A stretch of DNA of 64,000 nt, from NCBI RefSeq assembly GCF_051903065.1, contig NZ_CP178439.1, one strand, 5' to 3'. This stretch comes from Escherichia coli. Its GTDB lineage: Bacteria; Pseudomonadota; Gammaproteobacteria; Enterobacterales; Enterobacteriaceae. Below, piece by piece: positions 12,001-15,000 of this stretch. Numbering within the stretch: the first letter of the stretch is position 1; every line of letters begins with the position of its first letter. Position numbers: made by a program.

Positions 12001-15000
12001 CGTGTTGAGGCCATTTATGAAAACTCTACGCTGAAAGCGCCGTTTTGTATAAGCGGCCATGGTATGCCCGGAGCCACAGCTGCGGATGAGTTCGATAAAA
12101 CCCTGGCGTTTCTTGAAGCTATCGTTAATGCGGATGATGAAACAACGGTCGGCGAGATCCGCCCTTTTGCTGACGACCTGGATGCTGTCAGGTTCAACCG
12201 CCACAAAATCAACCGGCAACTGAGCAGGCTCGACCTTGCATCTCCGGTACTGGAGCCTGAAGTTATCTGGCTGGGCCGTCGTCGCTGACTGATGTCTATA
12301 AAGGTATACGTTTTCAGCATGCCTCTCAGATCCCCGAAAAAATGTCTATAAACCTCCCTAAATCAGTGTTTATGGATTATTCTTTAAATCTCTATGATGT
12401 TTAAAGACCTTCCGGAGGTTTTGCGTGCAATATGCCTACATCAGGGTAAGCTCGGCCGATCAGAATACGGCCCGTCAGGAAGAGGCATTGTCAAAGGCGG
12501 GTTTTCAGCCTGATAAAATTTGTGTTGAGCATGCCAGCGCGAAGGACACAAACCGCCCGGGGTTACAGGAACTCCTGGGGCAATTACGCCCTGGTGATAC
12601 GCTTCTGGTTCATTCCATCGATCGCCTTTGCCGGAATATGTCGGATATGTGCGCTGTCACCACCCGGCTTCGTGACCAGGGCGTTACCCTTATTTTTCTG
12701 AAAGAGCAGCTGACGTTCAGCGCCGGCACAAACAATCCGATGCAGGAACTGCAGCTGCACATGATGTCGGCATTCAGCCAGTTTGAACGAGCCTTACTGA
12801 AGGAAAGGCAGGCCGACGGCATCGCCGCGAAAAAAGCACGGGGTGAAAAAACAGGGCGCCCCGGCGCCGATATCAAAAAGATCCAGGAAATTGACGCACT
12901 CAGAAGCAGAGGGGTCAGGCTCAGGATCGCCTGCGACCATGCGGGCCTTGGCGTTTCCACATATTATAAGCTTCGTCACCAGATGAACAACCAGTAGCCG
13001 GGAGATAGTCATCCACCACAGCAGGAGGCAATGATGCAACTGACGCTCCAGATAGTCATCACCGATGAATCAGGCTCCAGTCGAACGGAGGAACTGATGA
13101 CAATCCAGAAATCAGGGGAGACCCGGAACGACATCGGATTATCGGTGTCAGAATCCAAGCTGTTGCTGAATACGGTCCAGCAGTCGGTGGTCCAGCTGCA
13201 GGCAGACGAATATACTCAACACCATATCCGGTGCCCTCACTGCCTTGCTGCGCGCAGAATCAAAGGCAAACAGAAAATACGGTACCGGACGCTGTTTGGC
13301 GTTATTCCGGTATCCGGGCTTCGGGTGTACCGGTGCCGTTGTGAAGAGAGTGATACAAAGACAGTCAGTTTGCTCAGCGACTGGGCCGGCGATTATTCTC
13401 ACCCGGCACTGAAATATATTGAAACCCGCTGGGCCTCGATGATCTCCTATGAAATGACGACTCGTCTGCTGAAAGATATTCTGCCGGTGGGCCACAGCCT
13501 GAATGCCTCAACGGTGAGGAATCATTTATGCCAGGTGGCGCAGCGTCTTGACGCTGAGGCTGAAGCTCATTCAGGTTTTCTTTCCGGCTGCCCCCGCGAC
13601 TGGGGGAACCTGCCCAGGCCAGGAAAACCGCTTGTGGTGGGTATAGATGGTGGTTATGTTCGCGATCGGGATGACAAAAAGCGTAATTTTGAAATTATTG
13701 CCGGGAAGTCTTTTTCCGTTGGTGCGCCTGCTGACACCCGCCGCTTCGGTTTTGTTCAGAAGGATGACTGTCATCCGGAACGCAGGCTCATGACCCACCT
13801 TTCAGCGCAGGGAATGCAGGCCAACCAGCAGATATTTTTTCTGTCCGACGGCGCGGATAATCTCAGGGACCTCCAGTTCGGTATGTACCCTGAGTCAACG
13901 CATGTGCTGGACTGGTTTCATATCACCATGAGGCTGAAGGTGCTCATGCAATATGCCCGGGGACTGCTGGTATCAGATCCAGAGGCGGGGAGTAAAGTTC
14001 TGGCACTGCTGGAAAGCATTAAACGATATCTCTGGCATGGCAATGTTGTCGCTGCGCTGGAACATATTGATAATTGCGTTATGTATTGCGATGACCCTGA
14101 ACTCAGCTATCCTAGCCTGAAATCCCTGCAAAAACATCTGGATGAAATGTATACCTACATCCGGAATAATAAGATGATGATCCCAAACTACGGCGAAATG
14201 CGTCGGTACGGAGAGCCGGTATCAACCGCGTTTGTGGAATCCACGATCAATGAAGTGATCGCCAGACGAATGGCCAAAAAGCAGCAGATGCAGTGGAGCA
14301 GAAAAGGGGCTCATTATTTGTTACAGACCCGGACCGCCGTTTTGAATAACGAACTGCAGGATAAATTTGTCTGCTGGTATCCGGGTTTTCAAAGTGACGG
14401 GAAGGGACCAGCGATGGCAGCATAGCTCACGCTGCCCCAATATTTTTTATGCTCTCGGTCGTATGGAAGCTGGACCGCCTCGGTCGTGATCTTCGTCATC
14501 TCATTAATACAGTGCACGACCTGACCGCGAGGGGGACCGGTCTGAAAGTGCTGACCGGTCACGGGGCGACTATCGACACAACAACGGCCGCTGGCAAGCT
14601 TGTCTTCGGTATCTTTGCCGCACTGGCGGAGTTTGAGCGCGAACTGATTGCTGAAAGAACGACTGCAGGTCTGGCATCAGCAAGAGCCCGTGGGCGGAAC
14701 GGCGGCCGACCTTATAAAATGACGCCAGTCAAACTGCGACTGGCAATGGCATCAATGGGACAATCAGAAACAAAGGTCAGTACGCTATGCCAGGAACTTG
14801 GGATAACCCGGCAAACTTTGTACAGGCATATTTCCCCTGTTGGTCAACTGCGGGCGGACGGGATCAAGCTGCTCAACCGTGGATAATTTGAACGGACGGA
14901 AAAATCTGGGGTTCCGGCGTAGTACCCCTATCACCTCCACATTTTTGCAACAGTGCCTTATAAATGGCAGCCTTATGTTTACTTGCCAAGATGGGCTACC

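What the first reader, a model, noticed from the sequence alone, without database searches (positions are those of the whole stretch)
14944..14957. Solitary 14-bp IS26-type inverted repeat with no IS body
TTTGCAACAGTGCC occurs downstream of the truncated resolvase with no adjacent IS26 sequence. A chance 14-mer match in 64 kb is unlikely, so this is probably a relic of an earlier IS6-family insertion or deletion and could still act as a recombination hotspot for Tnp26.
Basis: seen in the sequence. Interest (0 to 1): 0.35.

Follow-up and report, generated by a model that had tools for sequence, protein, structure and literature searches.

The report
Stump of an IS26-like insertion sequence
The lone 14-base IS26-type repeat next to the quinolone-resistance gene qnrS1 is the last 29 bases of an IS26 relative that was cut off when a Tn3-family transposon landed in it, and it is an inert fossil carried by about 1,850 qnrS1 plasmids, not an active recombination site.

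Summary
TTTGCAACAGTGCC sits at 14944-14957 (+), where about 0.0005 exact copies are expected by chance. It is the only exact copy in the window with no IS26 next to it.

It is not a bare 14-mer and it does not come from IS26 itself. Bases 14929-14957 match 29/29 the left end of complete 819-bp IS26-like elements found in metagenome contigs. Those elements are about 89-90% identical to IS26. IS26 itself matches only 24/29.

On its inner side the 29-bp stump abuts, at 14928/14929, the 38-bp terminal inverted repeat of a small Tn3-family transposon (14891-14928). That repeat lies 4 bp after the tnpR stop codon. A complete 3,881-bp relative has the same repeats and 5-bp direct repeats.

The best reading is that an IS26-like element lay beside qnrS1 and the end of a Tn3-family transposon cut into it 29 bp from its tip.

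The junction is fixed: 1,855 of 1,885 matching plasmids carry it intact. No plasmid has an IS26 fused at this repeat. Published experiments show that the targeted Tnp26 reaction needs long sequence identity, not 14-16 bp. The hotspot idea is therefore not supported.

Interest is low, with one modest correction to the published map of Tn6292.

The parts
14944..14957 (-). 14-bp terminal inverted repeat (GGCACTGTTGCAAA read on the - strand). It is the outermost 14 bp of the left end of an IS26-like element.
   Evidence: Exact match. It is identical to the terminal repeats of IS26 and of the IS26-like elements in L010, L012, L015 and L017.
14929..14957 (-). 29-bp stump: positions 1-29 of the left end of an IS26-like insertion sequence (GGCACTGTTGCAAAAATGTGGAGGTGATA).
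   Evidence: Matches 29/29 the first 29 bp of the complete 819-bp elements in L010 and L012, 28/29 those in L015 and L017, and 24/29 IS26.
14891..14928 (-). 38-bp terminal inverted repeat (tnpR-side end) of a small Tn3-family transposon (GGGGTACTACGCCGGAACCCCAGATTTTTCCGTCCGTT on the - strand). Its outer end at 14928 cuts the IS26-like element.
   Evidence: The same repeat lies at the tnpA end of related transposons (L005 from 1778; L007) and at both ends of a complete 3,881-bp element in L018 that is flanked by TAATA/TAATA. This tnpA-end plus repeat sequence is covered at 80% or more in 507 plasmid records. There is only one copy in the window.
14457..14886 (+). 5'-truncated resolvase gene (tnpR) of the Tn3-family transposon; the full gene is 615 bp (204 aa).
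   Evidence: Aligns to L002 5758-6187 of the complete gene at 5573-6187. The protein is 92% identical to the TnpR of a colicin-carrying Tn3-family transposon.
11970..14456 (+). Right-hand 2,487 bp of ISKpn19 (transposase and recombinase genes). Its end truncates tnpR.
   Evidence: 99.96% identical to L002 5078-2592, which is annotated as ISKpn19.
14958..15204 (.). AT-rich (33% GC) DNA between the stump and the 3' end of qnrS1. It starts with TTATAAAT, the sequence the IS26-like element abutted.
   Evidence: Sequence, GC content. It is contiguous with the stump in 1,855 of 1,885 matching plasmids.
15205..15861 (-). qnrS1 quinolone-resistance gene (218 aa).
   Evidence: ORF; annotated as QnrS1 at 100% identity in matching plasmids.

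Best explanation
The 14-mer is the tip of a 29-bp stump of the left end of an IS26-like insertion sequence. That element belongs to the IS6/IS26 family, is about 89-90% identical to IS26, and has the same 14-bp terminal repeats. It once lay next to the 3' side of qnrS1, with its left end touching TTATAAAT. A small Tn3-family transposon (tnpA-res-tnpR only, resolvase of 204 aa) then struck the IS 29 bp from its tip. Its tnpR-side terminal repeat (14891-14928) now abuts IS position 29, and the rest of the IS is gone from every context examined. Later events, including ISKpn19 and several IS26 insertions, cut away the far side of the transposon. Today the stump is a passive fossil that hitch-hikes with qnrS1. 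Tnp26 can probably still bind the 14-bp repeat, but a single repeat with 14 bp of uninterrupted identity to IS26 is not a substrate for either IS26 reaction. Shown here: the coordinates, the 29/29 match, the identity of the Tn3-family terminus, the population-wide conservation of the junction, and the absence of IS26 fused at this site. Inferred: the order of events and present inactivity.
For: (1) 14929-14957 equals the first 29 bp of complete 819-bp IS26-like elements bounded by the same 14-bp repeats, one of which (L012) encodes a full 234-aa Tnp26-like transposase. A Serratia liquefaciens plasmid carries a further relative that matches 28/29. IS26 matches 24/29. (2) 14891-14928 is a genuine Tn3-family terminus. 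The same repeat ends the tnpA gene of a relative whose TnpR is 92% identical. It also bounds both ends of a complete 3,881-bp element with 5-bp direct repeats TAATA, in which the tnpR stop lies a few bp from the repeat, as in the window. The family is widespread. (3) The IS homology stops exactly at the outermost base of that repeat (14928/14929). (4) The tnpR-repeat-stump-qnrS1 junction is near-identical in 1,836 to 1,855 plasmids across Klebsiella, Escherichia, Salmonella, Enterobacter and others. This includes the 10-kb plasmid pTPqnrS-1a, which has an intact tnpR. That pattern fits a single old event. (5) No IS26 is fused at the repeat in any plasmid. No promoter-like site uses its TTGCAA.
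Against: The reciprocal junction was not found in PLSDB. That junction would be the rest of the IS26-like element, then TATCA, then the tnpA-side repeat. The expected 5-bp target duplication therefore could not be checked, and simple insertion cannot be told apart from an intramolecular event by the same transposon end. The exact parent IS was seen only in metagenome contigs, not in a cultured qnrS1 host. Whether Tnp26 binds or acts on this copy was not tested experimentally.
Confidence: 0.85

Rival explanations
1. It is a relic of IS26 itself: an IS26 copy sat here and was deleted, leaving only its terminal repeat.
For: The 14-bp repeat is identical to that of IS26, and the window holds eight IS26 copies.
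Against: The 15 bases inside the repeat differ from IS26 at 5 positions, yet they match IS26-like relatives at 15/15. The break coincides with a Tn3-family terminus, so it is not an arbitrary deletion end. All eight IS26 copies in the window have the canonical sub-terminal sequence.
Confidence: 0.04
2. The solitary repeat is still used: Tnp26 from the many IS26 copies recombines at it. This could happen by the targeted conservative route, or by pairing it with the inverted repeat of a nearby IS26 (for example 11150-14957) to move a hybrid unit.
For: Tnp26 binds DNA fragments that contain a terminal repeat, and the binding site lies within the repeat (PMC8477213). In the window, 11150-14957 is formally bounded by inverted 14-bp repeats and contains tnp26.
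Against: No PLSDB plasmid shows IS26 fused to the flank at 14958 in either orientation. The junction is intact in 1,855 of 1,885 records, and the partial matches sampled break elsewhere. Harmer & Hall 2021 detected no targeted reaction at an end sharing only 16 bp, and both partners had to encode the same transposase.
Confidence: 0.04
3. Same components, different route. The transposon did not simply insert into the IS. Instead its tnpR-side end attacked the IS26-like element on the same molecule (intramolecular replicative transposition), which deleted or inverted the DNA in between.
For: The reciprocal junction with a TATCA duplication is absent from 72,556 plasmids. The transposon's tnpA side is disrupted in every context examined.
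Against: Later events (ISKpn19 in tnpA, IS26 insertions) explain the loss of the other half equally well. No direct evidence favours this route.
Confidence: 0.25
4. Chance match or a conserved non-IS motif.
For: None beyond the shortness of the 14-mer.
Against: Expected count 4.8e-4 for the 14-mer and about 4e-13 for the 29-mer. The 29-mer is the terminus of complete transposase-encoding elements.
Confidence: 0.01

Closest known systems
IS26 (IS6/IS26 family, 820 bp, 14-bp terminal repeats GGCACTGTTGCAAA)
   Same: Identical 14-bp terminal repeat. The sub-terminal bases are recognisably related (GG.GGTGATA). The parent elements are 819-820 bp, and those with an intact gene encode 234-aa transposases that match Tnp26 at 221-228 of 234 residues.
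   Different: The stump matches IS26 at only 24/29, and the parent elements are about 89-91% identical in DNA. By the usual ISfinder convention (my recollection, not checked) they would count as a different IS, not an isoform. At this locus there is no transposase gene, no second repeat and no checkable 8-bp duplication.
Other IS26-family members that share the same 14-bp repeats (IS1006, IS1008)
   Same: They show that this 14-mer is a family feature and not an IS26 signature (PMC7885326).
   Different: These are Acinetobacter elements whose transposases are 83.7-93.1% identical pairwise with Tnp26. Their sub-terminal sequences were not compared here.
Tn6292, the published 'Tn3-family unit transposon carrying qnrS1' (PMC5027574, PMC5868456)
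   Same: Same tnpR, qnrS1, ISEcl2 remnant and ISKpn19.
   Different: The passages read from those two papers place qnrS1 inside the transposon as a passenger. They do not mention a terminal repeat directly after tnpR or the IS26-like stump. Here the basic transposon ends at 14928, so qnrS1 lies outside it. If the distal repeat those authors report is real, the structure resembles Tn1721, in which a basic transposon is followed by an extra segment closed by a third repeat. That resemblance is my own knowledge and was not tested.
Minimal Tn3-family element in pCFSAN024579 (CP074271.1, locus L018)
   Same: Same terminal repeats and the same layout, with the tnpR stop a few bp from the repeat. It is 3,881 bp with 5-bp direct repeats.
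   Different: Only about 85% DNA identity over tnpR. Its tnpA reading frame is split into two pieces (2937-4703 and 4707-5996), so it may be inactive. It is not associated with qnrS1 or with an IS26-like element.

Membership tests
IS6/IS26-family insertion sequence (as a remnant) | 14-bp terminal inverted repeat GGCACTGTTGCAAA | tested here: met
   Exact at 14944-14957.
IS6/IS26-family insertion sequence (as a remnant) | Sequence inside the repeat continues as the left end of a family member | tested here: met
   29/29 to L010 and L012, 28/29 to L015 and L017.
IS6/IS26-family insertion sequence (as a complete element) | DDE transposase gene between two inverted terminal repeats about 820 bp apart | tested here: not met
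   Only 29 bp remain. Immediately inside lie a Tn3-family repeat and tnpR. The other repeats in the window belong to IS26 copies of their own, eight complete and one truncated.
IS6/IS26-family insertion sequence (as a complete element) | 8-bp target-site duplication | not testable with these tools
   Only one end survives. The flank is TTATAAAT.
IS26 itself | Sub-terminal sequence identical to IS26 (GGCACTGTTGCAAATAGTCGGTGGTGATA) | tested here: not met
   24/29. All IS26 copies in the window carry the canonical sequence.
Tn3-family transposon terminus (for 14891-14928) | About 38-bp terminal repeat starting with GGGG, present inverted at both ends of complete relatives that carry tnpA, res and tnpR and have 5-bp direct repeats | tested here: met
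   L018: a 3,881-bp element with repeats at both ends and TAATA/TAATA. L005: the repeat overlaps the tnpA 3' end. Pfam DDE_Tnp_Tn3 and Resolvase hits on the neighbouring genes.
Active Tnp26 recombination site | IS26 found joined at this repeat in related plasmids | tested here: not met
   A chimeric query covering both IS26 orientations, with an E-value cut-off that only a continuous match could pass, gave no match in 72,556 plasmids.
Active Tnp26 recombination site | Extended sequence identity with IS26 at the reacting end and a cognate transposase gene in the partner (Harmer & Hall 2021) | tested here: not met
   Only 14 consecutive identical bases and no transposase gene. The requirement is taken from PMC7885326.
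Active Tnp26 recombination site | Tnp26 binding and cointegrate formation in vivo | not testable with these tools
   Needs EMSA and mating-out assays.

The most novel reading that the evidence does not exclude
The IS26-like element whose stump survives here was the vehicle that first captured qnrS1 from its still-unknown source organism. On this reading the repeat/TTATAAAT junction marks the edge of the originally mobilised segment, and the published transposon 'Tn6292' is a later overlay. A weaker variant is that the stump can still pair with the inverted repeat of a nearby IS26 to move a hybrid unit.
Probability: 0.12. Interest if true: 0.4.

Novelty: new member of a known kind. Interest (0 to 1): 0.18.

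Why it matters
The practical value is small and concerns annotation.

First, anyone mapping qnrS1 regions should not read this 14-mer as evidence of an IS26 event. Nor should it be treated as a site where IS26 will recombine.

Second, the basic Tn3-family transposon next to qnrS1 ends 42 bp after the tnpR stop codon. qnrS1 therefore lies outside it, which revises the published 'Tn6292' map.

Third, the stump records an earlier neighbour of qnrS1: an IS26 relative of the kind seen in compost and other metagenomes and in Serratia plasmids. This gives a search handle (the 29-mer plus TTATAAAT) for tracing the pre-clinical history of a globally spread resistance gene.

Nothing here points to a new mechanism.

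Tried and rejected
(1) Tested whether a complete IS26 sits at this position in other qnrS1 contexts. Chimeric queries (60 bp of the IS26 end plus 200 bp of flank, both orientations) gave only two-piece matches from nearby IS26 copies. A combined query with an E-value cut-off that only a continuous match could pass gave nothing.

(2) Searched for the reciprocal junction (rest of the IS26-like element, then TATCA, then the Tn3-family repeat). No continuous match was found; the hits were ordinary IS26 copies and other relatives.

(3) Scanned 100,044 species-representative genomes for the 20-mer GGCACTGTTGCAAAAATGTG. There was one hit (L009, an Enterobacterales MAG), which shares only the first 22 bp and could not be read further. 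A plasmid search with that 42-mer found nothing.

(4) Searched for resolvase relatives with homologous downstream DNA. DNA relatives at 71-77% identity align only within tnpR. The protein route led to the informative loci L005-L007.

(5) L008 looked like a diverged copy (95.8% identity) but is the same sequence with assembly gaps. H150 looked like an independent 33-bp context but is a qnrS1 region cut by ISKpn19.

(6) Searched the literature for an existing description of the stump. No paper held both 'qnrS' and 'repeat of IS26'. The Tn6292 papers and the 2026 TIME paper do not mention it in the passages read. The Partridge 2018 review and the accessions KM977631, KX711879 and KU886034 were not available.

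(7) A resemblance I recalled between the reverse strand and the blaTEM promoter region of Tn3 was dropped, because it was an untested recollection and in the wrong orientation.

(8) Checked for a hybrid promoter that uses the TTGCAA of the repeat. The scan found none.

Full report
**Observation.** The 14-mer TTTGCAACAGTGCC is present at 14944-14957 on the + strand. From base composition, about 4.8e-4 exact copies are expected in 64 kb. The window holds 18 exact copies. Sixteen are the ends of eight complete 820-bp IS26 copies. One is the left end of an IS26 truncated after 782 bp (5421-6202). The copy at 14944 is the only one with no IS26 beside it. Only 14457-14886 aligns with a full 615-bp copy, and the right end of ISKpn19 abuts it at 14456/14457.

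**What lies next to the 14-mer.** Reading the - strand from 14957 gives GGCACTGTTGCAAAAATGTGGAGGTGATA|GGGGTACTACGCCGGAACCCCAGATTTTTCCGTCCGTT, followed 4 bp later by the tnpR stop codon. Two separate things meet at the bar (14928/14929).

**The inner piece is a Tn3-family terminal repeat.**
- 14891-14928 is the terminal inverted repeat of a Tn3-family transposon.
- The full-length resolvase (204 aa) has a 92%-identical relative in a Salmonella contig, where it sits beside a 1,009-aa Tn3-type transposase. The same repeat overlaps the 3' end of that tnpA (L005 from 1778).
- A Salmonella Irumu plasmid (CP074271.1, L018) carries a complete 3,881-bp element made only of tnpR, res and tnpA. It is bounded by these repeats and flanked by 5-bp direct repeats TAATA/TAATA. 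Its tnpR stop lies a few bases from the repeat, as in the window.
- The tnpA-end plus repeat sequence is covered at 80% or more in 507 plasmid records, the best-matching of which are from Enterobacterales.
- The transposon next to qnrS1 therefore ends at 14928.

**The outer piece is the end of an IS26 relative.**
- IS26 matches the 29 bases 14929-14957 at only 24/29.
- A metagenome scan used a pattern designed to exclude the qnrS1 junction itself. It returned six contigs in which this sequence begins an IS.
- In three of them the whole element is present. It is 819-820 bp, bounded by the same 14-bp repeats, and 88.9-91.1% identical to IS26. In two of the three it encodes a full 234-aa transposase that matches Tnp26 at 222-228 of 234 residues; the L010 copy has a premature stop at 202 aa.
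- L010 and L012 match the stump 29/29.
- L012 is annotated as coming from a compost metagenome. Its neighbouring FeoB is about 75% identical to enterobacterial FeoB.
- Further relatives sit on plasmids of Serratia liquefaciens (28/29) and Pantoea agglomerans (22/29).
- The 14-mer is thus the tip of a 29-bp stump of an IS26-like element, not of IS26.
- The 14-bp repeat is shared by several family members, including IS1006 and IS1008 (PMC7885326).

**How it arose.** The IS homology stops exactly at the outermost base of a transposon terminus. The economical explanation is that the end of the Tn3-family element struck the IS26-like element 29 bp from its tip. This was either a simple insertion, which predicts a 5-bp duplication TATCA, or an intramolecular event. 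The reciprocal junction was not found in 72,556 plasmids, so the two routes cannot be separated. In every context examined the tnpA side of the transposon has been destroyed by ISKpn19 and other events. The order of events is an inference; the identities of the pieces and their boundaries are shown.

**Conservation.** The tnpR-repeat-stump-qnrS1 arrangement is essentially invariant.
- 1,836 of 1,997 plasmids that match 14700-15250 cover at least 80% of it, almost all at 99% identity or more.
- 1,855 of 1,885 plasmids that match a 120-bp junction probe carry it nearly whole.
- The hosts include Klebsiella, Escherichia, Salmonella, Enterobacter, Shigella and Citrobacter.
- The sampled partial matches break at other positions: 14468, 14840, 14912, 14925, 15020 and 15108.

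**Is it a Tnp26 hotspot?**
- A hotspot would leave plasmids in which a whole IS26 is joined to TTATAAAT at 14958.
- A query holding both possible IS26-flank chimeras, with an E-value cut-off that only a continuous match of roughly 230 bp or more could pass, found none. IS26 is common a few hundred bp away.
- Harmer & Hall (2021) showed that targeted conservative cointegration needs identical transposases and identity extending well inward from the reacting end. They detected no reaction at an end sharing 16 bp. With a construct that kept 44 bp of identity at one end, all 30 cointegrates tested had formed at its other end.
- The stump shares 14 consecutive bases with IS26 and has no transposase gene.
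- Tnp26 probably still binds it, since the binding site lies within the repeat (PMC8477213). Binding is not recombination.
- No promoter-like site uses the TTGCAA of the repeat. The stump lies downstream of qnrS1, so an effect on its expression is unlikely.

**Relation to published maps.** The qnrS1 region is described as 'Tn6292', a Tn3-family unit transposon with qnrS1 as an internal passenger (PMC5027574, PMC5868456). The passages read from those papers mention neither the terminal repeat directly after tnpR nor the IS26-like stump. I found no other paper that does, although key subscription papers were not available. On the present evidence the basic transposon ends at 14928 and qnrS1 lies outside it.

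**Verdict.** The feature is real and correctly spotted, and it is rightly read as an IS6-family relic. Its parent was a relative of IS26. It is 29 bp long, cut by a Tn3-family end, fixed in the qnrS1 plasmid population, and shows no sign of activity. It is an ordinary kind of fossil with modest value for annotation and history. Interest 0.18.

Noticed in passing
window 6203-6574 and 11970-14456, with 6567-6574 and 11970-11977: ISKpn19 is split by a 5.4-kb segment bounded by two directly oriented IS26 copies (6575-7394 and 11150-11969). The 8 bp CAATTTCT is duplicated on each side, which is the signature of an IS26-mediated insertion into ISKpn19. The content of 7395-11149 was not examined.
   Followed up: partly
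window 5100-6202: A nested pile of truncated elements. An IS6100-type repeat (GGCTCTGTTGCAAAGATTGG...) starts at 5100 and runs up to the left end of an IS26 at 5421. From memory it looks like the right end of IS6100. That IS26 is itself cut after 782 bp by the left end of ISKpn19 at 6203.
   Followed up: partly
window 14891-14928; literature on Tn6292: The published Tn6292 map places qnrS1 inside the transposon, yet a full terminal repeat lies directly after tnpR. The structure may resemble Tn1721 (basic transposon, extra segment, third repeat). The distal 'orf198-IRR' was not seen in the window or in the loci fetched.
   Followed up: partly
L007 1168-1260 and 3800-3856; L005: In the colicin-associated relative, the tnpR-side repeat appears split by an insertion of about 63 bp. 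The colicin and immunity genes are followed by a second tnpA-3'-end plus repeat. This suggests a passenger module captured between repeat copies.
   Followed up: no
L010 2595-3413, L012 3684-4502, L015 2720-3539, L017 905-1724, L016 905-1724: A set of IS26 relatives, roughly 89-91% identical to IS26 or to one another over the stretches compared, with identical 14-bp terminal repeats. They occur in compost and other metagenomes and on plasmids of plant-associated Serratia and Pantoea. I could not check whether they are named in ISfinder.
   Followed up: partly
L009 3340-3381 (MAG Enterobacterales JAATFO010000101.1): A repeat-like sequence, GGCACTGTTGCAAAAATGTGGA, shares 22 bp with the stump and then diverges. 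The stored stretch ends 22 bp later, so it is unknown whether an IS follows. There was no match in the plasmid collection.
   Followed up: partly
L001 3001-3035 (Citrobacter portucalensis plasmid NZ_CP134684.1): An isolated copy of the Tn3-family terminal repeat (34/35 match), with no tnpR-like ORF listed upstream in the 2100-3200 stretch examined. It may be a solo repeat or a miniature derivative.
   Followed up: no
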